Assembly (NCBI GenBank): GCA_963700315.1
Contig: CAVOXC010000011.1
Location: forward strand, 288,308 to 352,307
Direction: 5' to 3'
Origin: an uncultured Acidobacteriota bacterium
GTDB taxonomy: Bacteria; Acidobacteriota; Thermoanaerobaculia; Multivoradales; JAGPDF01
Length of the DNA stretch: 64,000 bases
Part shown: positions 4,034 through 59,004 of the stretch, one piece after another
How positions within the stretch are numbered: the stretch's first letter is position 1
Layout of the letters: every line of letters begins with the position of its first letter
The notes under the pieces: model-generated
Seen by the model: the letters and a program-made list of their open reading frames with translations, nothing else
What the model was told of the DNA's origin: nothing
Databases searched by the model: none
Position numbers and translations under genes: made by a program

Positions 4034-4132
4034 CGCTCGGGCCCTCCGCTCCTCGTGCGCTTCGTTTCTTGCCGCGCATTCTCTACGACCGCGCGCCCGG
4101 AACCAAACTGCCGCCTCGCCCACTCCCTTCAT

Positions 4133-4232
4133 GTCGTCCTGAGCGTAGCGAAGGACCTGGCGTGGCGGGTGGGGAATCGCTGTCGGAGCTGCTTCAGGCG
4201 AGGGCGCAAGATCTTCACTTCGTTCAGATGAC
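4133..4232 (+). repeat. Copy A of a ~100-bp imperfect-palindrome (hairpin) element
   Basis: GTCGTCCTGAGCGtAGCGAAGGACC...GCGCAAGATCtTCACTTCGTTCAGATGAC. The arms are reverse complements of each other, and the same element recurs at 35578-35679 and 56338-56439 in the same orientation. Confidence 0.8.
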
Positions 4233-4461
4233 GGGGCGGCGTTCCGGCTGAGAGCGCGGGCCTGCGGAAGAAGTCAGCCGAACCGACGGCTGGCACCGGC
4301 GGGCGCGCCAGCTGACTCGGCCTGCGGCGCGCGTCGAGCGGATCTGGCTGCAGAGGCGAGGGCGCAAGATCATTCACTTCGTTCAAGATGACGGGGGCGG
4401 GCGTTCCGGGTGAGAGCGCGGGCCTGCGGAGAGACGTCGAGCCGAACCAATGGCTGGCACC
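4196..4461 (+). repeat. Two ~105-bp direct repeats (4196-4297 and 4354-4461)
   Basis: Each unit runs AGGCGAGGGCGCAAGATC.TTCACTTCGTTCA.GATGACGGGG..CGTTCCGG.TGAGAGCGCGGGCCTGCGGA...GCCGAACC..GGCTGGCACC. The second unit is the right arm of the hairpin element without its left arm. Confidence 0.8.
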
Positions 4462-18537: not shown

Positions 18538-18822
18538 TCATGGTTCGGCGACCTCGGAGGCGTGGCGGCCGCGGGGGGCGGGGGCGCCGCGGAGGAGGCC
18601 TTCGGTCGAGAGGTCTTCGTCGACCTCCGGCCAGTGGATGCCGTAGCCCGCGCCGGCGAGCTCCCAGCGCGCGCGCTGTTCCGGGGTCGCTTGGAAGAGG
18701 CGCGGATACCAGGAGAGCGGCACGCTGATCGTGCGGCCGTCCATCAGGTCGACGATCAGGGAGTCCGCGTCGAAGCGCACGTTGCGCACCCGTTCGTCAG
18801 CGCTGGTAGCCAAAATACCCAT
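18538..18822 (-). CDS. DUF2442-family small protein
   Basis: [61 protein letters not shown] matches the DUF2442 pattern as I remember it. It overlaps the upstream DUF4160 gene by 26 nt. Confidence 0.7.
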
Positions 18823-19039
18823 GCCAGGCCTCCATCAGTTCCTCTCGCCGGCCCTCGACCAGCCGACCGATCTCGTTGAGCTCGTGCGCCGAGAAGCCGC
18901 GGTTCGCCGCGAGCCCCACCGGCGAGAGCCAGAACTTCGCCGAGAAGCGCTCGCGGTCGACGTGGACGTGCGGCGGCTCCGTTCCCTCGTGGCTGTAGAA
19001 GAAGATCCGGTACGGACCACTCCGCAGAAGCGTCGGCAT
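18797..19039 (-). CDS. DUF4160-family small protein
   Basis: MPTLLRSGPYRIFFYSHEGTEPPHVHVDRE...[24 protein letters not shown] shows the typical N-terminal MP..., the PPHxH core and the C-terminal helix of DUF4160. It starts 13 nt after the gyrB stop. Confidence 0.7.
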   Translation of the reverse strand: MPTLLRSGPYRIFFYSHEGTEPPHVHVDRERFSAKFWLSPVGLAANRGFSAHELNEIGRLVEGRREELMEAWHGYFGYQR

Positions 19040-35293: not shown

Positions 35294-35543
35294 GGGCTCG
35301 CTCCGCTCGTTTTGGTTCGTGCTGATTCGGTTGTTGGGCGTCTCTGGTGGCGGGGCGGTGTGGGTGGGTCCCTTGCCTGCGGAACCGCCGTCCGCCTGGA
35401 GTCTCTTGGAGCGGCCGGCTGCGTTCGGTCTCGCGGCTCGCGCCTGCGGCGCTCGCATCGTTTCGCATGCGAGCCCTCAAGCTTCCTCCGGCAAGGGACC
35501 CACCCACGCCGCGTCTCGTTCCTGCCAGGGACCGACACAAGCC
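35294..35543 (+). repeat. X element, forward copy (~250 bp, contains a long internal stem-loop)
   Basis: About 90% identical by eye to the reverse complement of 56539-56788. The internal arms GTGGGTGGGTCCCTTGCC / GGCAAGGGACCCACCCAC enclose ~115 nt. Confidence 0.8.
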
Positions 35544-35577
35544 ACGAGGACTTGCGAGCTGGCCCTGCAACCCCCCT

Positions 35578-35679
35578 GTCGTCCTGAGCGCAGCGAAGGA
35601 CCTTGCGTGAGCGGCGAGGAACCGCCCTCCTCGCTTCTTCAGGCGAGGGCGCAAGATCCTTCACTTCGTTCAGGATGAC
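35578..35679 (+). repeat. Copy B of the ~100-bp hairpin element
   Basis: GTCGTCCTGAGCGCAGCGAAGGACCTTGCG...CGCAAGATCCTTCACTTCGTTCAGGATGAC with an inner hairpin GCGAGGA/TCCTCGC. Nearly identical to 56338-56439. Confidence 0.85.
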
Positions 35680-35712
35680 ACGCGAAGGCGCTCACGCTGA
35701 CAAGGCACGGTG

Positions 35713-35937
35713 AGCCTGTGTCGCTCCCTGGCACGAACGAGACGCGTGGAGCGGTCCCTTCTCTGCGGAGGAAGCTTCGTAGCCCGCCCCCCAGGCAAGA
35801 CGAAGCGAGCGCCAGCGAGCTTCGCGGGCGGGCGGAGCGCAGGCCCGAGCAGTCCCGCCCAACCGAGGGCCGGTTCCTGCGCAGAGAAGGGAGCGCTCCA
35901 CGCACCGCCACCAGAGACGCCCACCAGAGAATCAGCA
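35713..35937 (-). repeat. X-family element, diverged copy in inverted orientation relative to 35294-35543
   Basis: It shares both termini with the 56.5-kb copy (TGTGTC.C.CCCTGGCA.GAACGAGACGCG ... CCGCCACCAGAG.CGCCCA.CA...GAATCAGC). Its internal stem uses different, mutually complementary arms (GTGGAGCGGTCCCTTCTCTGCG / CGCAGAGAAGGGAGCGCTCCAC). Confidence 0.7.
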
Positions 35938-50237: not shown

Positions 50238-50609
50238 GTGGGCGGTCTCGTCGTGGTCACCACCGTCGGAAACGAGGAGCAGGCCAACCTGCTCGCCTCG
50301 GAGCTCGTCTCGCGCCGTCATGCCGCCTGCGTCAATATCGTCCCGGGTCTGCGCTCGGTCTACCGCTGGCAGGGCAAGATCTGCCGCGACACCGAGTTCA
50401 TGTTGATCGTCAAGACCAGCGAGCGCGAGTACCCGCTGGTCGAGCAGGCGATCCAAGAGCTGCACAACTACGAGCTCCCCGAGATCCTCGCCTTCAAGGT
50501 CTGCAAGGGGGAGAAGAACTTCCTCGCCTGGATCGAGGGCTCGCTCGACAAGGACGCCCCCTTCTCCGACGAAGAAGAGCGCGACGGCCTCGACGAGACG
50601 AATTACTGA
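50238..50609 (+). CDS. cutA: Divalent-cation tolerance protein CutA
   Basis: VVVTTVGNEEQANLLASELVSRRHAACVNIVPGLRSVYRWQGKI...YELPEILAF. GTG start. Confidence 0.88.
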   Translation: MGGLVVVTTVGNEEQANLLASELVSRRHAACVNIVPGLRSVYRWQGKICRDTEFMLIVKTSEREYPLVEQAIQELHNYELPEILAFKVCKGEKNFLAWIEGSLDKDAPFSDEEERDGLDETNY

Positions 50610-51166
50610 AGCGCCCTGCCCCGTAATCGCAGCCGAAGCCTCGCGAGCGCACGCGTGAGGATCTTCTTGGCGTTGGCGTGCGAGATACCCATCCGGGTCG
50701 CAACCTCGAGCACTGTGCAGCCATCGATGTAGCGCAACCGAAGAGCTAGCGCGGCGGTAGGCGTCAGCAAACGGATCGCTCCTTGGGCGGCGATGCGAGA
50801 AACGATGGGAGTGTCGCGCCCCCGCAGGCGATGGAGCAAAGCGGCATCGAGAGCCAGCTCGCGCCGCCGAGCCACCGCTGCGCGCACTAGCTTCCTGCGC
50901 ACCACGGCGACAAACCAAGCGACCGGGTTCTCGATTCCGGCCTGTCGTTCGATCCAGAGAAGGTAGGTCGACTGGACAGCGTCTTCGAAATCGGGATCGG
51001 AGGCCGAGATCCCGAATCCACGGATCGAGGCGGCGCAGCGGGCGACGACATCGGCGCAGCCGGTCCGGTCGATCGACTCGAGCGCGCACTCGAGCGAGCC
51101 TCCTGCGCGCGGAGAGACCTCGCCGCTCGAGGCCAAGCAGTCGAGCTTCTCGTTCCTCCCCGTCAC
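50603..51166 (-). CDS. ECF-type sigma-70 family RNA polymerase sigma factor
   Basis: The region 2-like segment is DFEDAVQSTYLLWIERQAGIENPVAWFVAVVRRKL and the region 4 HTH is LRLRYIDGCTVLEVATRMGISHANAKKILTRALARLR. The proposed start is GTG 51166, with AGGAGGA about 9 nt upstream. The stop overlaps the cutA stop. Confidence 0.75.
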   Translation of the reverse strand: MTGRNEKLDCLASSGEVSPRAGGSLECALESIDRTGCADVVARCAASIRGFGISASDPDFEDAVQSTYLLWIERQAGIENPVAWFVAVVRRKLVRAAVARRRELALDAALLHRLRGRDTPIVSRIAAQGAIRLLTPTAALALRLRYIDGCTVLEVATRMGISHANAKKILTRALARLRLRLRGRALQ

Positions 51167-51357
51167 GCCGGAGCATCCTCCTGTCCCCGAAAGGTCCGCT
51201 GCCGGCACTATAAGTACGGGTGGCCGGAGTTGTCTATCGAGAGCGTCTTCTCGGTCCGGCCTGGAGAGTCGATCGTCACAGGTTCGCTTCGTCACGCCGG
51301 TGCCTTTCGGGAGCTTGCTGAGAAACTGAAGCAGAGAAACTAGAAAGGAGAGCAAGG

Positions 51358-51552
51358 ATGAGAGTCAAGTTGAGCTGGTCGGGTATCGCTTTGACGTTGC
51401 TCGCGTTGGCGAGTTTGGTCCTCGGGGCGCCGTCGGGTGCGAAGCCACCGAGCTGTGGTTCGTGCCGCGACGGCACGCTGAACATGCAGCAGCAGAGTTG
51501 TCCGGGGTCGGCTTCCGACTGCACGGAGTGCACGGTCTGCGAGCCGGGTTGA
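51358..51552 (+). CDS. Small exported Cys-rich peptide (64 aa precursor, 7 Cys in ~37-aa mature part)
   Basis: AAGGAG lies 7 nt upstream of the ATG. The Sec-type signal is MRVKLSWSGIALTLLALASLVLGAPSGA and the mature part is KPPSCGSCRDGTLNMQQQSCPGSASDCTECTVCEPG. The codons have clearly lower GC than the flanks. Confidence 0.6.
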   Translation: MRVKLSWSGIALTLLALASLVLGAPSGAKPPSCGSCRDGTLNMQQQSCPGSASDCTECTVCEPG

Positions 51553-51593
51553 GGATGACGTAGCGGAGCTCGCGACGGCTACAGGGTATCGGT

Positions 51594-52736
51594 GTGACGA
51601 GCCGAATTCTGCTTGTGATCCTCGCGTGGGGAGCCCATGCGGCGTGGCTGCCCGCCACCTGTGCGGGCTCCCGGCGCGCGGCGGCCGCACCCTGCCGTGG
51701 GGCGAACCTCGACCCGCCACCGGGTTACTTCTTCACGGGCGCCTGGCTGAGCGATGGCGAGGCGCTGGTCCTTCCGGACGTGGCGGATGGAGCGCTCGCG
51801 ATCTACGCGGCCCCGACCGGGGTGCGCACCGAGCGGAGGATCCGGCCCGGCCGGAAGCTCTTCGACTACTCCCGTCCGGGCAGGATCGCTCCGCGTCCGG
51901 GGGGGTACTTGCTGGAGGACGGCAACCTGCGCTTCCTGAAGCTCGACCCGAGACTGGAGCCCGGAGGCCTATTGGATCTCGCGACGACGTTGGAGCGGGG
52001 AGTGGACTGGGAGGCCGCGCCGTTCGCGTGGGCACCGTACCGTGGCGCTCTGGCCGGCTTCGGGGATTTCCGCAGCGCCGGCGGAGAGTGGAAGACGGGG
52101 GTCTTCGTCGTCCGAGATGGACCGCGGCTCGAGCTCGACGTGCTTCTCGAGACGCCCTCGACGCGTGCCCGGATCGTCCCGTACCTGAGCGATACGCCGC
52201 TCCTCGCCTCGGATGGCAAGACCCTCTACTTCCTCGACCTGCTGGATCGGCGAGCCATCCTCCGCTTCGAAGACGGCACGGTCGAAGAGACCTTCCGACT
52301 CGACCCCGCCTTCGCGGATTCCAGCCGCCTGCCCCCCCCGGGGGGAAGAGCCGCGATCGAGCAGATCTACGCGGCGCTCTCGCGCTCGAACCTCGCCGTT
52401 CAGCTCCATGCCGCGGACGGGCTCCTCTTCCTTCTGCTACGCGCGCAGGGATCGCTAGGCGAGCGGCTCTGGTTCCTCGAAGTCGTCGATCCCGCGCTCC
52501 GCCGAAGCCTCGGCCGCCTCAGGCTCCCCACCGACGCGGACCACCTCACGATCGTGCCCGGGCGCAACGCTTGGGCGCTGCTCGAGAAGGGCCCGGTTCG
52601 ACCCGGTCCGCGCTTCGAGTGGGCGCGTCTCCGTCTTGTTCCCGGGAGCCGGATCCAGGGCGCGCTCAGCGAGCTCCGTAGAGGAAAGGGCGGCGAGCTC
52701 GCGCCGTGCGACGCGCAGTCGCTTACTTCGCGCTGA
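51594..52736 (+). CDS. Exported hypothetical protein (~380 aa), beta-rich
   Basis: N-terminal signal-like MTSRILLVILAWGAHAA. Repeated short beta-strand/turn pattern (LVLPDVADGALAIY, YLLEDGNLRFLKLD, LLASDGKTLYFLDL, LLFLLLRAQG). No motif recognised. Confidence 0.55.
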   Translation: MTSRILLVILAWGAHAAWLPATCAGSRRAAAAPCRGANLDPPPGYFFTGAWLSDGEALVLPDVADGALAIYAAPTGVRTERRIRPGRKLFDYSRPGRIAPRPGGYLLEDGNLRFLKLDPRLEPGGLLDLATTLERGVDWEAAPFAWAPYRGALAGFGDFRSAGGEWKTGVFVVRDGPRLELDVLLETPSTRARIVPYLSDTPLLASDGKTLYFLDLLDRRAILRFEDGTVEETFRLDPAFADSSRLPPPGGRAAIEQIYAALSRSNLAVQLHAADGLLFLLLRAQGSLGERLWFLEVVDPALRRSLGRLRLPTDADHLTIVPGRNAWALLEKGPVRPGPRFEWARLRLVPGSRIQGALSELRRGKGGELAPCDAQSLTSR

Positions 52737-53206
52737 CGGTCTCATGGGTCGCCGTAGGCGCCTGTTCCGGGCCCGCGACGCGATCCACGAGAGCCGGTCT
52801 CTTTCCTGACTCGCATTCCGCCGAGCTCGAAGCGAGGCTGACGCTGGACGAAGAGCTCGCGGTCTTCTATTGGCCCGCGGTCGAGCTATGCGATCCCGCG
52901 GCGGTCGCGGCGGCAGTCGCGCTCGAGAAGCTCGCCCGCGAGGAGCAGACCATTCGCGTAACCACCATAGTGCCGAAGGGCACGAGAAATGCGATCGAGC
53001 GCCTCGGCGTCCCCTACCCGGGGGAGACCCTCGAAGTTCCTCCGCGCCAATACCACGCGGCGGGTTGGCTCGTGCCGCTTCCTCGGGTTGAGGTTTGGAG
53101 TCGCGACGGAAGATTGATGCTGCTGAAGGCGATTCCGCCCAACCCGAATCAAGCCACGCAGCTCGGGGAGGAGATCCGATGGTTTCTCGCCATTCCCGTC
53201 ATGTGA
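52706..53206 (+). CDS. Lipoprotein, possibly a degenerate thioredoxin-like fold
   Basis: Lipobox ALTVSWVAVGAC. VFYWPAVELCDP sits where redoxins carry WCxxC, and only one Cys is present. It overlaps the neighbouring genes at both ends. Confidence 0.45.
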   Translation: MRRAVAYFALTVSWVAVGACSGPATRSTRAGLFPDSHSAELEARLTLDEELAVFYWPAVELCDPAAVAAAVALEKLAREEQTIRVTTIVPKGTRNAIERLGVPYPGETLEVPPRQYHAAGWLVPLPRVEVWSRDGRLMLLKAIPPNPNQATQLGEEIRWFLAIPVM

Positions 53207-55962
53207 AGCGAATCCACCGTGCCCTCCTGTGGTTCGCTCTTGGTCTCGCACCTCCGCTGGTCCCGGGAGCCGATGCGCTCGGAGGTCCCGTCTTCGTGGA
53301 CCGTCGTGGCGATCCGGTCGCTGGCGCTCGGATATTCTTGTTCGACCGAGTGGAGGAGAACGCAAGCCTGATGGCACGTTCCGAGGCCTACTTCGAGACT
53401 CGAACCGGATTCGACGGACGCCCCGTCGATCGACTCCCGATCTCGGAGGGCGTCCTCGTCGTGGTGGATGACGGGCGACACGCACCCTGGGAATGGCGCG
53501 AGCGCGAGGATCTGCCGGAACGGGTCGTCTTCCGCGAAGGAGCATCTCTATCGGGTACCTTTCGGCTCGTCGCCGGTCCAGAAGGCTCGATCCCGCTGCT
53601 CGCGGCCTGCGCGAGCTGGGAGAAGTCCTATGAAGAGTGGCGGAGAACGGTCAGGTTCGAGCGCTGTCGTTTCGAACAGGAGAAGAATCGGTTTCGATTG
53701 TCCGGAATACCCGAGACGCCAGTCATGGTCGAGCTGCGCGCACCGCTGGCGTTACCGTGGCGACGCGAAGCGCGAGCCAACGAAGACCTCCAGGCTCTGC
53801 TGGAGCCTGGAATCCTGATTCAAGGCCAAGTCGAGGACGGTCGTGGGGCGCCCATCGCCGGAGCCGAGATACGCGCGGCCAGCGGAGAGGCCGATGGCAC
53901 CGCAATCTCGAATCACAACGGCGCTTTTGCGCTCGCCGTGCGCAGCCTGCCGATAGAGATGGTTGCTCAGGCGGATGGGTATCGCCGCCTGAGCCTGGTT
54001 GCCCAGGCCGAGCGCCTCGACCGCGAGAAGAAGATCCGGATTCGACTCGATCCCGCATTCGTGGTCCGGGGCGAGCTGCGGGCAACGTGCGGCCACTTAC
54101 CCGACCCCATTCGGCTCGACCTGGGCTCGGTCGAGGGGGGTACGAGCCCGAAGTCCCAGGCGCTGTCGCTGACGGCCGAGCAGGGGAAGCTTCGCCTCGA
54201 GGTCGAGCGCCCCGGCCGCTACACGGTCAGAGTCGGCGGAAGAGGGGTTCGCTGGAGCGACCCGATTCCATTCGAGGCGGAAATGCAAGGGGTCTGGGAT
54301 CTCGGACTCATCGAGCTCGGATGTGGTGCCGGGGTTCGCGGCCGCGTCGTCTCGGCCGCATCCGGCGAGGCGTTGCCGCGAGTACGTCTCCTTCTTCGCC
54401 CGAAGGGAACAGGCATCCTGGAGCAGCTGCGATTTCACGAGGCCCATCGGACCTCGACGGGCGCGAGCGGCGAATTCGAGATCCTCGGCGCGCGCTCGGG
54501 AGCGTATGTCCTCAGAGCGGCCGGGCCGGGAGGTCTCCGGCGCGACGAGCCTATCGAGCTGGAGCAGGACGAAGTCGTCGATCTGGGAACGCTCCGCTTG
54601 GCACCCCCGGTCCTCGTCTTGGGGCGGGTCGAGTCCAGGTCCGGGAAACCAAGATCCGGCGTCCTCGTCGAAGCGCTGGATTCTCAAGGGACGCTCCTTG
54701 AGCCCTTGGCCCTTGCGACGAGCACCGACGACGGGAGCTTCGAGTTTCCCTTGTCCGCCGGAAGATACCTCCTGCGAGCGCGAAGAGGGCGAACCCTGGT
54801 GGCCCAGGAGGTCGATGTCCCCGAGGGCGAGGAATCGATCGAGGTCGCCCTGACTACCCGGGAGGTACGCCTGCTCGGAATTGTCCGGTCGGCGGGCGAA
54901 GCGGTACCCGGTGGCTGGGTGGAATGGGTGGATGCCGCCGATCCGGGCCTGCGCCGGGGGAAGCTCGTCCTGCAGTCCGATTCCGCCGCCGCGGGCGGAT
55001 CGTCAATTCACGGTCTGCCGGAATCTCGGACGGGAACCGAAGTTCGGGCGGACGGGACATTCGAGATCGAAGAGGCCGCCGCGGGCCGCGGGTGGCTCGA
55101 CTACGAGAGCCGGGCGGGGAGGAGACACCGACAGCCGGTCGACCTTCTGGACGTGACCGAGACATTCGTCGTCGTGGACCTCGACGCCCCGCCCCTCGAG
55201 GGCCTCGTCGTGGAGGAAAGCTCGGACTCAGGAATCGAGGCGACCGTTGCCCTTCTGTCGGAAAGCGGCGGGCGCGTTGCCGCATCGCCCTCGAGCCCGT
55301 TGTCGGGCTTCTCGTTCGAGAATGTGGAGTCGGGAAAGTATCGAATCGAGGCGCGCGCGGAGGACTATGCAACGGGCTCTTGGCCGATCGAGCTCGCCGA
55401 CGAGAGGTCGCCGCTCCGGCTGGCTCTCGAGAGGGCAGAGAGCGCGTCGATTCGAGTCCGTTTGCGACGAGAGGGAGGGGAGCCCGTCTCCTGGGCGGCG
55501 GTCGCACTGCTGACCGAGTCCGGCGCGGTCGTGCGGTCGCTCCACACCAATCCCGCGGGGGAGATCAAGTTCGTTGAGCTCGCGGCTGGACGCTACCTTG
55601 TGGCGTGGTCGGATGCCCTAGCCGGTGCCGGTGCGTCGGGGCCGTTTGCGGTGACCGCCGGGGAGCCCGCAGAGGCGGACCTTCTCCTGGGGCGAGGAAG
55701 TGACCTCTTCGTCGAGTGTCCGGCCGAAAGTTGTGGAGGCCACCTACTGCAGTGGGCTCAGGTGCTGACGAGCTCCGGAGTGGACATCGGCTTTCTCCTG
55801 AGTGGCCTGGGCTCGGCGCGAAGCGTGTCGTCCAACGGGGCGTTGCGGCTCGGGAGGCTCTCTCCTGGTGCCCCCTACCGGGTGAGGCTCTCTATCGGGG
55901 ACTACCAGGGCGATTTCACGGTGATGCCGGGCGGCGGCGCGATCACGCTTCATCTTCCGTGA
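53179..55962 (+). CDS. Large exported protein built from ~8 carboxypeptidase-regulatory-like (Ig-like beta-sandwich) repeats
   Basis: ATG 53179 after GGGGAGGAG. Signal-like ALLWFALGLAPPLVPGADA. Recurrent G.V.D..G.P..GA.V...........G.F.L..L..G.Y.L repeats (for example IQGQVEDGRGAPIAGAEIRA, VRGRVVSAASGEALPRVRLLL, VLGRVESRSGKPRSGVLVEAL). Confidence 0.7.
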   Translation: MVSRHSRHVKRIHRALLWFALGLAPPLVPGADALGGPVFVDRRGDPVAGARIFLFDRVEENASLMARSEAYFETRTGFDGRPVDRLPISEGVLVVVDDGRHAPWEWREREDLPERVVFREGASLSGTFRLVAGPEGSIPLLAACASWEKSYEEWRRTVRFERCRFEQEKNRFRLSGIPETPVMVELRAPLALPWRREARANEDLQALLEPGILIQGQVEDGRGAPIAGAEIRAASGEADGTAISNHNGAFALAVRSLPIEMVAQADGYRRLSLVAQAERLDREKKIRIRLDPAFVVRGELRATCGHLPDPIRLDLGSVEGGTSPKSQALSLTAEQGKLRLEVERPGRYTVRVGGRGVRWSDPIPFEAEMQGVWDLGLIELGCGAGVRGRVVSAASGEALPRVRLLLRPKGTGILEQLRFHEAHRTSTGASGEFEILGARSGAYVLRAAGPGGLRRDEPIELEQDEVVDLGTLRLAPPVLVLGRVESRSGKPRSGVLVEALDSQGTLLEPLALATSTDDGSFEFPLSAGRYLLRARRGRTLVAQEVDVPEGEESIEVALTTREVRLLGIVRSAGEAVPGGWVEWVDAADPGLRRGKLVLQSDSAAAGGSSIHGLPESRTGTEVRADGTFEIEEAAAGRGWLDYESRAGRRHRQPVDLLDVTETFVVVDLDAPPLEGLVVEESSDSGIEATVALLSESGGRVAASPSSPLSGFSFENVESGKYRIEARAEDYATGSWPIELADERSPLRLALERAESASIRVRLRREGGEPVSWAAVALLTESGAVVRSLHTNPAGEIKFVELAAGRYLVAWSDALAGAGASGPFAVTAGEPAEADLLLGRGSDLFVECPAESCGGHLLQWAQVLTSSGVDIGFLLSGLGSARSVSSNGALRLGRLSPGAPYRVRLSIGDYQGDFTVMPGGGAITLHLP

Positions 55963-56064
55963 CAAGCGGACGTGTTCCAGTTGAACAGAAGCAACGACTA
56001 AAGGTGGCCGAGGCGCTCTCCCATCTCGTGGCACTGGCGCAATGCCGCGCGGAGGCGACTCGAG

Positions 56065-56254
56065 CGAGCCCGAGCGCGAGGCGATCGGGCCGGCGATCCA
56101 CGAGCCGCGCGTCCACGAGCTCCCCGAGATCCTCGCCTTCAAGGTCTGCAAGGGGGAGAAGAACTTCCTCGCCTGGATCGAGGGCTCGCTCGACAAAGAC
56201 GCCCCCTTCTCCGACGAAGAAGAACGCGACGGCCTCGACGAGACGAACTACTAG
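56065..56254 (+). pseudogene. Orphan duplicate of the cutA 3' end
   Basis: 56115-56254 equals 50470-50609 with 5 mismatches (the stop changes from TGA to TAG). More diverged homology continues upstream to about 56065. The N-terminal two thirds of CutA are missing. Confidence 0.85.
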
Positions 56255-56337
56255 AGCGCCTGCTCGCCGATCGTGGGTGCCCCCGCGCCAGCTTGCCTGG
56301 CGTTCTGCCGGCGGCGCCCTCTCCGCGCCCCATTCAT

Positions 56338-56439
56338 GTCGTCCTGAGCGCAGCGAAGGACCTTGCGTGATCGGCGAGGAGCCACCGTCCTCGCTTCTTC
56401 AGGCGAGGGCGCGAGATCCTTCACTTCGTTCAGGATGAC
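56338..56439 (+). repeat. Copy C of the ~100-bp hairpin element
   Basis: Nearly identical to 35578-35679. Confidence 0.85.
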
Positions 56440-56535
56440 AGTGGGCAGGCGTTCAGGGTGACAACGGGCGCAGTTCCGGCTGACATCGGGGGGCGTTCAG
56501 GCTGACGTCGGAGGGCAATCAGGCCGACATCGAGC
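56440..56535 (+). repeat. Four tandem ~23-bp units
   Basis: The units GGCGTTCAGGGTGACAACGG, GCAGTTCCGGCTGACATCGG, GGCGTTCAGGCTGACGTCGG and GCAATCAGGCCGACATCGAG. Single related units follow hairpin copies A and B. Confidence 0.65.
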
Positions 56536-56538
56536 AGG

Positions 56539-56788
56539 GGCTTGTGTCTCGCCCTGGCAGGAACGAGACGCGGTGTGCGTGGGTGCCTTGCCGGAGGAAG
56601 CTTGAGGGCTCGCATGCTGAAGGATGCGAGCGCCTGAGTAGCGGCCGCGAGACCGAACGCAGCCGGCCGCTCCAAGAGACTCCAGGCGGACGGCGGTTCC
56701 GCAGGCAAGGGACCCACGCACGCCGCCCCGCCACCAGAGGCGCCCAACAACCGAATCAGCGTGTATTCAGAACGAGCGCAGCGAATCC
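56539..56788 (-). repeat. X element, inverted copy
   Basis: Reverse complement of 35294-35543 at about 90% identity by eye. Confidence 0.8.
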
Positions 56789-56806: not shown

Positions 56807-57367
56807 TTACTTCTCCGCGGTCCTCGAATCGCTGTCCGCTGCGTGGGGCGGAGTCACCGTGCCGGTCTGCGCGTCGAGCGTCTTGGTGTCGTAGTAGACG
56901 TGCTCCTCGGCGAGCTTGCCGCCGGCGATGCGCCACATCGTGGCGCCCGAGACGTCGACCTTCGCCGGCTCCGCGCCTTCGGCCGTGAAGGTGCCCGTGA
57001 CCGTCCACTCGGCGAATGCGACGTCCTTGCCGTAGGCGGCCTGGTTCATGACGATGTGGAAGTCGGGATAGGTGGCGTGGACCTGCTGCATGAACGCCTT
57101 CAGCTCGTCGATGCTGTCGGCGTTCTGGTCGGGGGCGCGGCGGACGTAGTTCGCGGCCAGCAGGCCGTCGAGCTTGGCGTAGTCTCTCGCGTCCCAGACC
57201 TCGAACATGGTGTCCATCATGGGCGCGTACTCGGCGGCGTAGTCGGGAGCGGCCGGAGCGGCGGGCGCCGGCGCCTGGGCCTGGCAGGCGGCGAGCGACG
57301 AGAAAGCGACGGCAAGTACGGCGAGACGGGCGATGCGTGAGCCATTGCGCATGCGTTGCTCCTTCAC
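56807..57367 (-). CDS. SnoaL/NTF2-like lipoprotein (ester-cyclase-like fold)
   Basis: Lipobox LAVAFSSLAAC. FEVWDARDYAKLDGLLAANYVRRAP...FMQQVHATYPDFHIVMNQ...VAFAEWTVTGT resembles SnoaL-like domains. Confidence 0.55.
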   Translation of the reverse strand: MKEQRMRNGSRIARLAVLAVAFSSLAACQAQAPAPAAPAAPDYAAEYAPMMDTMFEVWDARDYAKLDGLLAANYVRRAPDQNADSIDELKAFMQQVHATYPDFHIVMNQAAYGKDVAFAEWTVTGTFTAEGAEPAKVDVSGATMWRIAGGKLAEEHVYYDTKTLDAQTGTVTPPHAADSDSRTAEK

Positions 57368-57546: not shown

Positions 57547-58707
57547 TCAGACCGCGGCGAGCGCCTGCTCGACGTCGGCGAGGAGGTCCTCGACGTCCTC
57601 GATGCCGACCGAGATGCGCACCAACCCGTCGGTCAAGCCGAGCTCGGCGCGGCGGTCGGCGGGGACCGAGGCGTGGGTCATCGACGCCGGGTGGCAGGTC
57701 AGCGTCTCGACGCCGCCCAGGCTCTCGGCGAGCGAGAGCACCTCGACCCTGTCGAGGAAGCGCTTCGCCGCGTCGTAGCTGCCGAGCTCGAAGGCGACCA
57801 GTGCGCCGAAGCCCGAAGCCTGGCGCTTCTGCATCGCGTGTCCCGGGGAATCCGGCAGCCCAGGATAGAAGACCTTCTCGACCTTGGCGTGCCCGTCGAG
57901 CAGCGCGACCAGCGCATGCGCGTTGGTCTCGTGCCGTTCCATGCGCACGCCGAGCGTCTTGATGCCCCGCAGCGTCAGGAACGAATCGAAGGGCGAGAGG
58001 ATCGCCCCTTCCGACTTCTGCAAGAAGTAGAACCACTCCCCCTGCTCGGCCGACTTCGCGATGAGCGCGCCGCCGATCGAATCCGAGTGGCCGTTGAGGA
58101 ACTTCGTCGTCGAGTGGATGACGACGTCCGCACCGAGCTCGAGCGGGCGCTGGAAATAGGGTGACAGGAACGTGTTGTCGACCGCGAGCAGCAAGCCGCG
58201 CGCGTGCGCGAGCTCGGCGGCGCCCGCGAGGTCGGTCACCTCCATCATCGGATTGGTCGGTGTCTCGACATAGATCATCCGCGTCGTCGACCGGATCGCC
58301 GCGCGGACGTCGTCGAGCTTCGTCGAGTCGACCCAGCTCGACTCGACCCCGTAGCGGTCGAGCACCTGCGTCATGAAGCGAAAGGTGCCGCCGTAGACGT
58401 TGCGCGAGAAAACCACGTGCTCGCCGGTCTTGACCAGCGTCATCAGCGTCGCGATCGCCGACATGCCCGAGGCGAAGGCGTGCCCCGAAGAGCCGCCTTC
58501 GATCGCCGCCAGATTCTCCTCGAGCGCGAAGCGCGTGGGGTTCTGCACCCGCGCGTACTCGAAGCCCTTGTGCACGCCGAGCTCGTCGAGGACGTAAGTC
58601 GACGTCGCGTAGATCGGCACCGTGACCGAGCCGGTGGTCGGATCGGGGTGCTGCCCGGCATGAATCGCGCGGGTCGAGAATCCTCGGGACTTCCAATCGC
58701 CTTTCAC
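57547..58707 (-). CDS. Cys/Met-metabolism PLP enzyme (cystathionine gamma-synthase/gamma-lyase family)
   Basis: The last 386 codons of the 973-aa track ORF give FSTRAIHAGQHPDPTTGSVTVPIYATSTY, ASGMSAI and IHSTTKFLNGHSD (PLP lysine). GTG 58707 has GAGGAG 7 nt upstream. Confidence 0.88.
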   Translation of the reverse strand: MKGDWKSRGFSTRAIHAGQHPDPTTGSVTVPIYATSTYVLDELGVHKGFEYARVQNPTRFALEENLAAIEGGSSGHAFASGMSAIATLMTLVKTGEHVVFSRNVYGGTFRFMTQVLDRYGVESSWVDSTKLDDVRAAIRSTTRMIYVETPTNPMMEVTDLAGAAELAHARGLLLAVDNTFLSPYFQRPLELGADVVIHSTTKFLNGHSDSIGGALIAKSAEQGEWFYFLQKSEGAILSPFDSFLTLRGIKTLGVRMERHETNAHALVALLDGHAKVEKVFYPGLPDSPGHAMQKRQASGFGALVAFELGSYDAAKRFLDRVEVLSLAESLGGVETLTCHPASMTHASVPADRRAELGLTDGLVRISVGIEDVEDLLADVEQALAAV

Positions 58708-59004
58708 GCGGGAGCTCCTCGCTCGAACGGTCCCGAAGGACCCCGGAAAGCGGGCAGTGTAGCAAGGGCGCGCCCAGTCTCCAGCCGAAGGAGCGCACGA
58801 TGCCGGCGCGCAACCCCACCCAGAACCTGGATCGCGACCTCGGGCGGTGCGTGGGGTTCGATGCGCAGACGGCGGGGGGTCCCCATTCCCTGATTGGCTG
58901 CGATCATCATGGGGTTCCCCGCAAGCAGCGAGCCCCACGTGCCGCACGAGGCCAGCGCCGCGGCGTGGCAACGGGGCCACCGCCGTGAGCGCTAGGATCG
59001 ACCC

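What the first reader, a model, noticed from the sequence alone, without database searches (positions are those of the whole stretch)
50470..56254. 5.6-kb integrase-less island inserted exactly at the cutA stop codon and bounded by a duplicated cutA 3' end
cutA (50238-50609) is intact. Exactly 5,645 bp downstream, its last 140 nt recur in the same orientation (56115-56254) with only 5 mismatches, including TGA to TAG. Weaker homology continues upstream to about 56065 (SSEPEREAIGPAIHEPRVHELPEILAF versus TSEREYPLVEQAIQELHNYELPEILAF in the intact gene). This gives an identity gradient, not a clean tandem duplication. The DNA between the copies begins at the cutA stop, which the convergent sigma-factor gene's stop overlaps. 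It encodes only an ECF sigma factor, a 64-aa Cys-rich exported peptide, and three exported or lipoproteins. There is no integrase, transposase, tRNA or obvious anti-sigma factor. After the remnant, the local hairpin-repeat family resumes, which looks like native cutA-downstream context. This is the clearest accessory segment in an otherwise core origin-proximal region, and none of the five products has a function I can name.
Basis: partly seen in the sequence, partly recalled or inferred. Interest (0 to 1): 0.8.

Follow-up and report, generated by a model that had tools for sequence, protein, structure and literature searches.

The report
Integrase-less gene islet in cutA's tail
A 5.5-kb block of foreign genes sits inside the tail of the housekeeping gene cutA in an uncultured acidobacterium, flanked by two copies of the gene's end; this is a familiar kind of acquired islet, notable mainly for lacking its own recombinase and for carrying an undescribed secreted-peptide operon.

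Summary
cutA (50238-50609) is intact. Its last 198 nt (50418-50615) recur at 56063-56260, 5,645 bp downstream. 140 nt are 96% identical; the 52 nt upstream are 69% identical. About 40 related Thermoanaerobaculia genomes show the empty site, with cutA converging directly on a cystathionine-gamma-synthase-like gene (cgs). None of 80 related loci carries the cassette. The cassette is compositionally foreign (GC3 0.75-0.83 against 0.886±0.033). The five differences between the 140-nt tracts are all silent, TGA>TAG included, so they look like two functional cutA alleles. The 52-nt stub shows unconstrained decay. This fits Campbell-type insertion of a circular element carrying its own cutA 3' end, crossing over within 50470-50551. 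No recombinase was detected in the island or in the parts of the window scanned. A lost or trans-acting integrase (CIME-like) cannot be told apart from RecA acting on the 146-nt homology. An independent short-read contig breaks exactly at the repeat's k-mer branch points, so the repeat exists in raw reads. It does not separate an integrated island from an empty site plus a circle. Cargo: a divergent ECF-like sigma factor and an operon conserved in five loci (secreted 6-Cys peptide, beta-propeller, thioredoxin-fold lipoprotein, 927-aa beta-sandwich repeat protein).

The parts
50238..50609 (+). Intact cutA (CutA1 divalent-ion tolerance family, 123 aa). Under the favoured model its last 140 nt came in with the element.
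   Evidence: Pfam PF03091 E = 8.4e-35. Synteny lepB-lepB-comEA-pilin-cutA is conserved in most of the related loci.
50418..50615 (+). Left (attL-like) repeat copy. 50418-50469 is native cutA sequence. 50470-50609 is tract A. The 82-nt run 50470-50551, identical in both copies, is the candidate crossover zone.
   Evidence: Tract A matches L001 at 133/140 and agrees with L001 at all 5 A/B-variable sites.
50603..51166 (-). Divergent sigma-70/ECF-like sigma factor (187 aa as called in an independent assembly; the maximal ORF runs to 51355). Its stop and last three codons lie inside the repeat.
   Evidence: Pfam Sigma70_r4 and r4_2, E about 1e-8. TIGR02937 scores 41.6 bits, just under its 42.9 cut-off. 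Gene call from the Logan contig. GC3 0.77.
51167..51357 (.). Divergent control region between the sigma gene and the operon. It holds a sigma-70-like promoter for the sigma gene (51236-51207, minus strand) and a strong Shine-Dalgarno sequence (AAAGGAG) before the peptide gene.
   Evidence: These are consensus matches only.
51358..51552 (+). pep64: a 64-aa precursor with a signal peptide and six invariant Cys (CxxCRxG...C...CxxCTxC at the C-terminus).
   Evidence: Homologous ORFs lie directly upstream of p380 homologues in L082, L085, L088 and L089. No Pfam or NCBIfam hit.
51594..52736 (+). p380: an exported beta-propeller from an unnamed family, with conserved Cys near both the N- and C-termini.
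   Evidence: 642 representatives at E <= 1e-3. AF2 pLDDT 91.6, all-beta. Foldseek finds only generic 6-7-bladed propellers at TM about 0.45. No Pfam hit.
52706..53206 (+). p166: a lipoprotein with a thioredoxin fold. The family motif is C-V-P-C; this copy has C-D-P-A, so the second Cys is lost.
   Evidence: 15-member family. AF2 pLDDT 83.9. The top 50 PDB matches are all thioredoxin-superfamily proteins, led by ResA, TlpA, DsbE and CcmG-type oxidoreductases. The lipobox VGAC is read from the sequence.
53179..55962 (+). p955/p927: a large exported protein made of CarboxypepD_reg (transthyretin-like beta-sandwich) repeats.
   Evidence: Pfam PF13620 E = 5.9e-46, 5 stretches. It follows the p166 homologue in L082, L085 and L088; the L089 contig ends first. 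GC3 0.75.
56063..56114 (+). E1: a decayed cutA-derived stub at the island's right end (36/52 identical to cutA; 6/17 aa identical; the conserved H-x-Y-E motif is destroyed).
   Evidence: Mismatches fall 5:9:1 by codon position, with 9 AT>GC against 2 GC>AT.
56115..56260 (+). Tract B: the displaced cutA 3' end (right, attR-like copy), inferred to be the resident allele's original end. Its stop is TAG.
   Evidence: 135/140 identical to tract A with all 5 differences silent (P = 0.0003-0.003 under neutrality). 128/140 to L001, close to the 92% of the native cutA 5' part. GC3 of the remnant ORF is 0.93.
56330..56784 (.). Copies of a dispersed hairpin-repeat family, including a 22-nt tandem array (x4.8) at 56427-56532. 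This is not part of the island.
56807..57367 (-). SnoaL-like gene. It is lineage-specific at this site but has native-like composition, and it lies outside the repeat-bounded island.
   Evidence: Pfam SnoaL_2 E = 3.9e-16. No homologue in the 80 loci. GC3 0.91.
57547..58800 (-). cgs (cystathionine gamma-synthase/lyase family), the ancestral convergent neighbour of cutA. The 5' coordinate is approximate.
   Evidence: NCBIfam E = 1e-155 to 1e-149. It lies within 170 bp of cutA in about 40 relatives.

Best explanation
A circular piece of foreign DNA carrying its own copy of the cutA 3' end inserted into the chromosome by one reciprocal crossover inside the last 140 nt of the resident cutA (Campbell-type integration). 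The left repeat is therefore resident cutA 5' sequence joined to the element-borne 3' end (tract A), which keeps cutA intact. The right repeat is the element's decayed cutA stub (E1, 56063-56114) joined to the displaced resident 3' end (tract B), followed by resident downstream DNA. What is shown: the repeat; the ancestral empty site; the foreign composition; the absence of a recognisable recombinase gene in the island; and the selected-versus-decayed contrast between the two parts of the remnant. What is inferred: the circular intermediate; which tract came in with the element; and the enzyme. I think a site-specific recombinase that was lost or acts in trans (a CIME-like state) is slightly more likely than host RecA acting on the 146-nt homology, because the step at 50469/50470 is sharp. 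The two cannot be separated here. The cargo is an envelope module. A divergent ECF-like sigma factor is transcribed away from an operon encoding a secreted 6-Cys peptide, an exported beta-propeller, a thioredoxin-fold lipoprotein and a 927-aa beta-sandwich-repeat protein. My inference is that the thioredoxin-like lipoprotein manages the disulfide state of the peptide and/or the propeller, which then act at the cell surface together with the large repeat protein.
For: Repeat: 198 nt, E = 2e-72, the only such pair in the window. Empty site: about 40 related loci have a cutA-cgs gap under 170 bp; none of 80 loci has a homologue of sigma, pep64, p380, p166, p955 or SnoaL; none has a cutA duplication. 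Foreign composition: tetranucleotide distance 0.0278 against 0.0141±0.0037, the highest of 96 same-size windows; GC3 0.75-0.83 against 0.886±0.033, while cutA, the remnant, SnoaL and cgs are 0.90-0.93. Two alleles: all 5 A/B differences are silent, including stop>stop, with P = 0.0003-0.003 under neutral change; both tracts share the same 7 differences from L001. Decayed stub: E1 mismatches fall 5:9:1 by codon position with an AT>GC bias and destroy a conserved motif. Independent reads: a Logan k=31 contig from ERR12037370 spans exactly 50522-56144, which are the two k-mer branch points of the repeat. A second assembly (L081) recovers 50602-55869 with A-type variants at its left end. No recombinase domain was found in the island or in the window gaps left by a GC3-based gene call. 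Cargo: the operon order is conserved in 5 loci at 30-50% identity; the folds come. Literature: integration into the 3' end of housekeeping genes leaves the gene intact because one repeat contains the gene's end, and CIMEs keep attL and attR but lack integration genes (PMC5704250).
Against: No recombinase, relaxase, or pseudogene of either is present, so nothing marks the segment as a former ICE or IME. The repeat (146-198 nt) is far longer than the 8-60 bp typical of tyrosine-recombinase direct repeats (PMC5704250). No second genome was found with this cassette at cutA, or with any element at cutA flanked by cutA repeats. No empty site was found in the same species: the nearest relative has 93% CutA identity and different cargo at the site. 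Which tract is incoming rests on a non-significant difference (7 against 12 mismatches to L001). The integrated topology rests on the submitted 556-kb contig alone. The short-read contig fits an empty site plus a circular element equally well. The functional model for the cargo is inferred from folds and gene order only, and this copy's thioredoxin-like protein lacks the second active-site Cys.
Confidence: 0.7

Rival explanations
1. The topology is the same but no site-specific enzyme is involved. Host RecA inserted, and can excise, the element by homologous recombination across the 146-nt cutA homology that the element carries. The tract is repeatedly refreshed from host alleles, while the stub never recombines and so decays.
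For: The near-identical homology is 146 nt with an 82-nt perfect run, long enough for RecA and much longer than typical att repeats of 8-60 bp (PMC5704250). No recombinase was found in the island or in the parts of the window that were scanned. Tract A is almost identical to the host lineage's allele, as expected if it is exchanged with host copies.
Against: The sharp identity step at 50469/50470 is more simply explained by a fixed crossover point. RecA crossovers over such short homology are inefficient. No case of reuse is documented. How the circular DNA would move between cells is unknown.
Confidence: 0.3
2. The remnant is an old, decaying in-situ duplicate (or the relic of a distant cutA carried by the island), and its 3' 146 nt were recently overwritten by gene conversion from the resident cutA.
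For: Gene-conversion tracts have sharp edges, which would explain a 69% block abutting a 96% block.
Against: After conversion, a non-functional copy should pick up random changes. Instead all 5 differences are B-derived relative to L001 and all are silent, including a two-step stop>stop change (P = 0.0003-0.003). The model still needs an earlier insertion event to create the remnant.
Confidence: 0.08
3. Assembly artefact. The real population holds an empty-site chromosome (cutA with a B-type end) plus a separate circular or other-strain molecule carrying the cassette with an A-type end. The assembler threaded them together through the shared 82-nt run.
For: The Logan contig ends exactly at the repeat's branch points, and the resulting graph is identical for both topologies. 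In another assembly the island is a stand-alone 5.3-kb contig (L081).
Against: The source contig is 556,615 bp. That size hints at long reads, which would span a 5.6-kb insert, but the sequencing platform was not checked here. The two copies differ at 5 sites, so they are not collapsed. A free circle with no replication or recombination gene is hard to maintain. Contigs breaking at repeat edges is also the expected behaviour for a truly integrated island.
Confidence: 0.07
4. 56042-56254 is the end of a functional second cutA paralog.
For: It is an in-frame ORF with an ATG start, and its last 46 residues are identical to CutA.
Against: It is only 70 aa and covers profile positions 63-97 of 99, at E = 0.0032 and below the Pfam cut-off. 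There is an in-frame stop and no cutA similarity upstream. The conserved LHxYELPE motif has become PRVHELPE.
Confidence: 0.01

Closest known systems
[quoted passage not shown]
   Same: Both are bounded by direct repeats, one of which contains the 3' end of a housekeeping protein gene, so the gene stays intact. Neither has an integrase or transfer genes. Both carry only cargo.
   Different: The repeats here are 146-198 nt rather than 8-60 bp. No relic of an integration or conjugation module is present. No cognate ICE or IME that targets cutA is known or was found. The phylum is different (Acidobacteriota) and mobility is untested.
Integrative mobilizable and genomic islands that target the 3' end of protein-coding genes (for example SGI1 in trmE, MGIs in yicC, guaA islands, rpsI/rplL/rpmG IMEs; Table 1 of PMC5704250)
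   Same: The target is the 3' end of a conserved gene. The element supplies a replacement gene end. Related genomes show an empty site. The composition is foreign.
   Different: Those elements encode their own tyrosine integrase at one end. This one encodes none.
Campbell-type single-crossover integration of circular DNA through cloned homology (suicide-plasmid integration; homology-facilitated recombination). This comparison rests on established knowledge.
   Same: The product is a direct duplication of the homologous segment flanking the inserted DNA. One hybrid copy completes the gene and the other is truncated.
   Different: This is a natural event. The source of the circle and its route between cells are unknown. 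The element-borne segment has a decayed 5' part, which implies a long history as part of the element.
Extracytoplasmic thioredoxin-like oxidoreductases (ResA, TlpA, CcmG/DsbE), and Cys-rich small subunit plus beta-propeller plus thioredoxin-like helper systems such as methylamine dehydrogenase MauA/MauB/MauD (the latter recalled from knowledge, not tested)
   Same: p166 has the ResA/TlpA-type fold and its family has a CxxC motif. The gene set pairs a small Cys-rich exported protein with a propeller and a thioredoxin-like helper.
   Different: There is no sequence membership in any named family. The mature peptide has no Trp, which the TTQ cofactor needs. There is no MauG or MauE. The window's p166 has only one active-site Cys. 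The large CarboxypepD_reg protein has no counterpart in those systems.

Membership tests
Site-specific integrative island at a gene 3' end (IME/GI type) | Flanking direct repeats, one of which includes the target gene's 3' end so the gene is not disrupted | tested here: met
   50418-50615 against 56063-56260; cutA is intact.
Site-specific integrative island at a gene 3' end (IME/GI type) | An unoccupied site in related genomes | tested here: met
   About 40 loci have a cutA-cgs gap under 170 bp, and no cassette gene occurs in 80 loci. No same-species empty site was found (one search found nothing).
Site-specific integrative island at a gene 3' end (IME/GI type) | Encodes its own integrase (tyrosine or serine recombinase), usually at one end | tested here: not met
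   No recombinase domain in any island ORF (Pfam, NCBIfam), nor in the window gaps.
Site-specific integrative island at a gene 3' end (IME/GI type) | Short direct repeats, 8-60 bp (PMC5704250) | tested here: not met
   146 nt near-identical, 198 nt in total.
Site-specific integrative island at a gene 3' end (IME/GI type) | Excision to a circular form and regeneration of attB | not testable with these tools
   The Logan contig fits both topologies.
CIME (cis-mobilizable element) | Retains attL and attR but lacks integration and transfer genes | tested here: met
   Repeats are present and there is no int, xis or relaxase gene.
CIME (cis-mobilizable element) | Derives from, and is mobilised by, a cognate ICE or IME with the same att specificity | tested here: inconclusive
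   No such element was seen in the parts of the 64-kb window scanned or in 80 related cutA loci. The rest of the genome was not available.
ECF (group 4) sigma-70 factor | Sigma-2 and sigma-4 domains only | tested here: inconclusive
   Sigma-4 is clear (PF04545, PF08281). Over the whole protein TIGR02937 scores 41.6 bits against a 42.9 cut-off, and there is no Pfam region-2 hit.
ECF (group 4) sigma-70 factor | An adjacent cognate anti-sigma factor | tested here: not met
   None of the neighbouring products has an anti-sigma domain. pep64 has essentially no cytoplasmic segment.
CutA1 | A full-length domain of about 100 aa | tested here: met
   The intact gene covers profile positions 2-97 of 99. 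The remnant covers only 63-97 and fails the cut-off.
Thioredoxin-like extracytoplasmic oxidoreductase (ResA/TlpA/DsbE type) | Thioredoxin fold | tested here: met
   AF2 pLDDT 83.9. The top 50 Foldseek PDB matches are all thioredoxin-superfamily members.
Thioredoxin-like extracytoplasmic oxidoreductase (ResA/TlpA/DsbE type) | CxxC active site | tested here: not met
   The window copy has C-D-P-A. Most of the family has C-V-P-C. There is no sequence-level Pfam or NCBIfam membership.
Methylamine-dehydrogenase-type system (MauA/B/D) | Light subunit with the two Trp that form TTQ, plus MauG and MauE | tested here: not met
   The mature pep64 has no Trp. No haem protein or MauE-like gene is in the cassette.

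The most novel reading that the evidence does not exclude
The element is a recombinase-free, homology-guided mobile cassette. It carries the last ~140 nt of a conserved housekeeping gene as a 'landing pad', so host recombination alone can insert and excise it in any close relative without damaging the gene. Its cargo is a previously undescribed system for making or displaying a secreted disulfide-rich peptide: the 6-Cys peptide, a dedicated thioredoxin-like lipoprotein, a propeller partner and a giant beta-sandwich surface protein, all under their own sigma factor.
Probability: 0.18. Interest if true: 0.65.

Novelty: new member of a known kind. Interest (0 to 1): 0.42.

Why it matters
Two things make it useful. 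First, it is a clean, datable case of gene acquisition in an uncultured class (Thermoanaerobaculia). It has a clear before-and-after picture: an empty site in about 40 relatives and an occupied site here. It also has a molecular signature, two functional alleles of a gene end next to a decayed stub, that shows where the crossover happened without any recombinase gene being present. Screens that require an integrase would miss islets like this one. Second, the cargo defines a conserved four-gene envelope operon with no annotated family. The operon itself was found in only five loci. Its propeller family has at least 642 representatives. The operon pairs a secreted 6-Cys peptide with its own thioredoxin-like lipoprotein, which gives a concrete and testable starting point for function. 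Neither point overturns current understanding.

Tried and rejected
Approaches that led nowhere:
- Exact-protein look-ups to find other contigs of the same strain all returned nothing: CutA with three start variants, the SnoaL-like protein and the pilin-like protein.
- A scan of JGI metagenomes for a 40-mer carrying two B-specific variants gave 0 hits, so the same-strain empty-site test failed.
With the p166 alignment it gave only two short contigs.
- PADLOC gave no defence-system hit.
- The p380 protein has no match in plasmids, phages or IMG/VR.
- A literature search found no report of cutA as an island integration site.

Readings considered and rejected:
- Transposon target-site duplication: 198 nt is far too long, and there are no terminal inverted repeats or transposase.
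- Tandem duplication followed by deletion: it does not explain the step in identity or the foreign composition.
- Functional cutA paralog: refuted.
- Methylamine-dehydrogenase-like system: the peptide has no Trp, and there is no MauG or MauE.
- pep64 as an anti-sigma factor: it has no cytoplasmic domain.
- The 25-nt inverted match between 56060-56084 and 56169-56193: treated as chance, since it is one of 58 such pairs in 8 kb of GC-rich DNA.

Not tested: a Xer/dif-type (IMEX) mechanism. The locus is about 25 kb from dnaA, so a dif site is unlikely here.

Full report
**Observation.** The window contains an intact cutA at 50238-50609 (Pfam CutA1, E = 8.4e-35). A direct repeat of its 3' part lies 5,645 bp downstream: 50418-50615 against 56063-56260, 198 nt, 89% identical, ungapped, blastn E = 2e-72. 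It is the only such pair in the 64 kb.

The repeat has two parts.
- The last 140 nt of the gene (50470-50609 / 56115-56254) differ at five positions and begin with an 82-nt perfect run.
- The preceding 52 nt match at only 36/52.

So the 'gradient' is really a step at 50469/50470. The remnant ORF (56042-56254, 70 aa) covers only the last third of the CutA1 profile. It is preceded by a stop and by DNA unrelated to cutA, so it is not the tail of a longer paralog. There is no tRNA nearby and no Rfam hit in the region.

**What lies between the copies.** Five genes:
- A sigma-70/ECF-like sigma factor on the minus strand, 50603-51166 as called in an independent assembly. Sigma-4 is clear. TIGR02937 scores 41.6 bits, just under its cut-off.
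- A 64-aa signal-peptide protein with six Cys (51358-51552).
- A 380-aa exported protein (51594-52736).
- A 166-aa lipoprotein (52706-53206).
- A 927-aa CarboxypepD_reg-repeat protein (53179-55962).

No island ORF has an integrase, transposase, relaxase or defence-system hit. The sigma gene's stop overlaps the end of cutA by 7 nt, and its last three codons lie inside the repeat.

**Empty sites.** The organism is a member of the Thermoanaerobaculia (Acidobacteriota). 80 related cutA loci were fetched from species-representative genomes, the closest (L001) at 93% CutA identity.
- The synteny lepB-lepB-comEA-pilin-cutA is conserved in most of them.
- In about 40 of the 52 loci where both genes were found within the fetched DNA, a convergent cystathionine-gamma-synthase-like gene (cgs) follows cutA within 170 bp.
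- In the window that gap is 6.9 kb.
- None of the 80 loci has a homologue of any cassette gene or of the SnoaL gene (tblastn 1e-3).
- None has a second cutA 3' end.
- About a dozen relatives carry other ordinary cargo at the same spot, with no recombinase: a CFA-synthase cluster, fumarate-reductase-like subunits, a PrsW protease, a glycosyltransferase, a sulfatase and an S10 peptidase.

The convergent cutA-cgs gap is therefore a general gene-content hotspot. The repeat-bounded structure, however, is unique to this genome.

**Composition.** The unique island DNA (50616-56062) has the largest tetranucleotide distance of any same-size stretch of the window: 0.0278 against 0.0141±0.0037 over 96 windows. 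Its GC is 0.670 against 0.707. Island genes have GC3 of 0.75-0.83 against a background of 0.886±0.033, and clearly different Gly and Arg codon choice. cutA, the remnant ORF, SnoaL and cgs have GC3 of 0.90-0.93. The cassette is foreign and its flanks look native.

**The two tracts are alleles; the stub is decayed.** All five differences between the 140-nt tracts are silent: AAG>AAA, GAG>GAA, AAT>AAC and TGA>TAG. At each site tract A carries the state seen in L001. Both tracts share the same seven differences from L001. In simulations of neutral change, five random substitutions are all silent, with the stop retained, in only 0.03-0.3% of trials. Tract B therefore diverged from tract A while it was part of a working cutA.

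The 52-nt stub shows the opposite pattern:
- 15 mismatches, distributed 5:9:1 over codon positions;
- 9 AT>GC against 2 GC>AT;
- 6 of 17 residues kept;
- the conserved LHxYELPE motif destroyed.

**Most likely history.** A selected tract abutting an unconstrained stub is what is expected of the attachment region of an element that integrates into a gene's 3' end and supplies a replacement end. The sequence 3' of the crossover becomes part of the host gene and stays under selection. The sequence 5' of it never does.

The resulting reading is as follows. The left copy is resident cutA 5' sequence plus the element-borne tract A. The right copy is the element's stub E1 plus the displaced resident tract B. 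The crossover lies in, or at the edge of, 50470-50551. The assignment of A as incoming is only weakly supported: the native cutA 5' part is 92% identical to L001, tract B 91.4% and tract A 95%.

**Which enzyme?** No recombinase domain was found in the island or in the stretches of the window that my GC3-based gene call left open. The remaining window ORFs look like origin-proximal housekeeping genes by eye and were not scanned formally: gyrA, gyrB, recF, dnaN, dnaA, recR, dnaX, yidC, parAB, pyrDF and lepB.

The literature describes exactly this state as a CIME, an element that keeps attL and attR but has lost its integration genes. It also notes that elements targeting gene 3' ends leave the gene intact because one repeat contains the gene's end. 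Typical repeats, however, are 8-60 bp (PMC5704250). Here the near-identical repeat is 146 nt, long enough for RecA. So a lost or trans-acting site-specific recombinase and RecA-mediated Campbell insertion both remain open. I slightly favour the former because the step is sharp.

**Independent support and the assembly question.** The exact p380 protein is on record on a 556,615-bp contig, the window's source. It is also on a 5,623-bp Logan contig from ERR12037370. From its gene coordinates that contig spans window 50522-56144. These are exactly the first k=31 word containing the first A/B mismatch and the last k=31 word containing the last unique base before the shared run. The repeat and its variants therefore exist in raw reads of an independent assembly.

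The same graph would also arise from an empty site plus a circular element, so the integrated topology rests on the long contig alone. A second assembly (L081) holds window 50602-55869 as a stand-alone contig with A-type variants at its left end. It differs by 123 substitutions and 50 indel columns, almost all within 51.8-53.3 kb. I could not decide whether that cluster is real mosaicism or long-read noise. Attempts to find a same-strain empty site failed.

**Cargo.**
- **p380.** It belongs to an unnamed family with 642 representatives at E <= 1e-3. It folds confidently (pLDDT 91.6) as a beta-propeller that resembles only generic 6-7-bladed propellers, at TM about 0.45. Cys residues are conserved near both termini.
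- **p166.** It belongs to a 15-member family of lipoproteins with a C-V-P-C motif and a cis-Pro-like TPLPRVE loop. Its model (pLDDT 83.9) matches only thioredoxin-superfamily proteins, led by ResA, TlpA, DsbE and CcmG-type oxidoreductases. The window copy has C-D-P-A.
- **pep64.** It has homologues with the same six Cys directly upstream of p380 homologues in L082, L085, L088 and L089.
- **Operon.** The order peptide-propeller-thioredoxin-like protein is conserved in five loci at 30-50% identity, with the big repeat protein following wherever the contig extends far enough. The regulator differs: a PAS histidine kinase in L085.
- **Mobility.** The propeller protein (p380), the only cassette gene searched, was not found on plasmids, phages or viral contigs.

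I infer an extracytoplasmic module in which the thioredoxin-like lipoprotein handles the disulfides of the peptide and/or the propeller. This is inference from folds and gene order, not a tested function. A methylamine-dehydrogenase-like reading was considered and rejected: the peptide has no Trp, and there is no MauG or MauE.

**Verdict.** The junction is a crossover inside the last 140 nt of cutA, not at the stop codon. The gradient is a step separating a selected allele from a decayed stub. The DNA after the remnant (hairpin repeats and SnoaL) is itself not ancestral.

This is a new member of a known kind: an integrase-less, att-flanked islet at a gene's 3' end. It is moderately interesting for the allele signature and for the undescribed envelope operon it carries.

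Noticed in passing
window 56330-56784; 35298-35936; 4125-4413: A dispersed non-coding repeat family at 80-90% identity, with parts in both orientations. It has ~25-nt inverted arms (GTCGTCCTGAGCGCAGCGAAGGACC ... GATCCTTCACTTCGTTCAGGATGAC) and, at 56427-56532, a 22-nt tandem array of 4.8 copies. It is absent from the 80 related cutA loci. One copy lies between dnaX/SRP RNA and the two tRNA-Ser genes.
   Followed up: partly
L081 (ENA ERZ25039603 contig_68429), equivalent to window 51800-53300: A second assembly of the same island is nearly identical, except for a dense cluster of 123 substitutions and 50 indel columns across the C-terminal half of p380, p166 and the start of p955. This is either strain-level mosaicism in the exported proteins or long-read noise.
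   Followed up: partly
related loci L001, L005, L064, L017, L011, L026, L030, L019 (DNA between cutA and cgs): The convergent cutA-cgs gap is a gene-content hotspot across Thermoanaerobaculia. At least six unrelated cargo types occur there: a CFA-synthase cluster, Frd/Sdh-like flavoprotein with an Fe-S subunit, a PrsW protease, a PMT glycosyltransferase, a sulfatase and an S10 peptidase. None has a recombinase or a cutA duplication.
   Followed up: yes
window 56807-57367 (minus strand): A SnoaL-like gene also sits between cutA and cgs and has no homologue in any relative's locus. Its GC3 (0.91) is native-like, which suggests a separate, older or intragenomic addition outside the repeat-bounded island.
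   Followed up: partly
window 18538-19039 (minus strand): A DUF2442/DUF4160 small-gene pair is wedged between gyrA and gyrB in an otherwise core origin-proximal block.
   Followed up: partly
window 52886-52897 (p166 residues 61-64): The window's thioredoxin-fold lipoprotein has C-D-P-A where most of its family has C-V-P-C, so the resolving Cys is lost. L082 (P0155) and P0167 also lack it.
   Followed up: partly
L083 and L084: Distant p380-family propellers occur in other contexts. In L083 there are two tandem paralogues next to a Reg_prop-like protein. In a TARA contig (L084) one follows an 85-aa ORF and precedes a TIR_2-domain protein.
   Followed up: no
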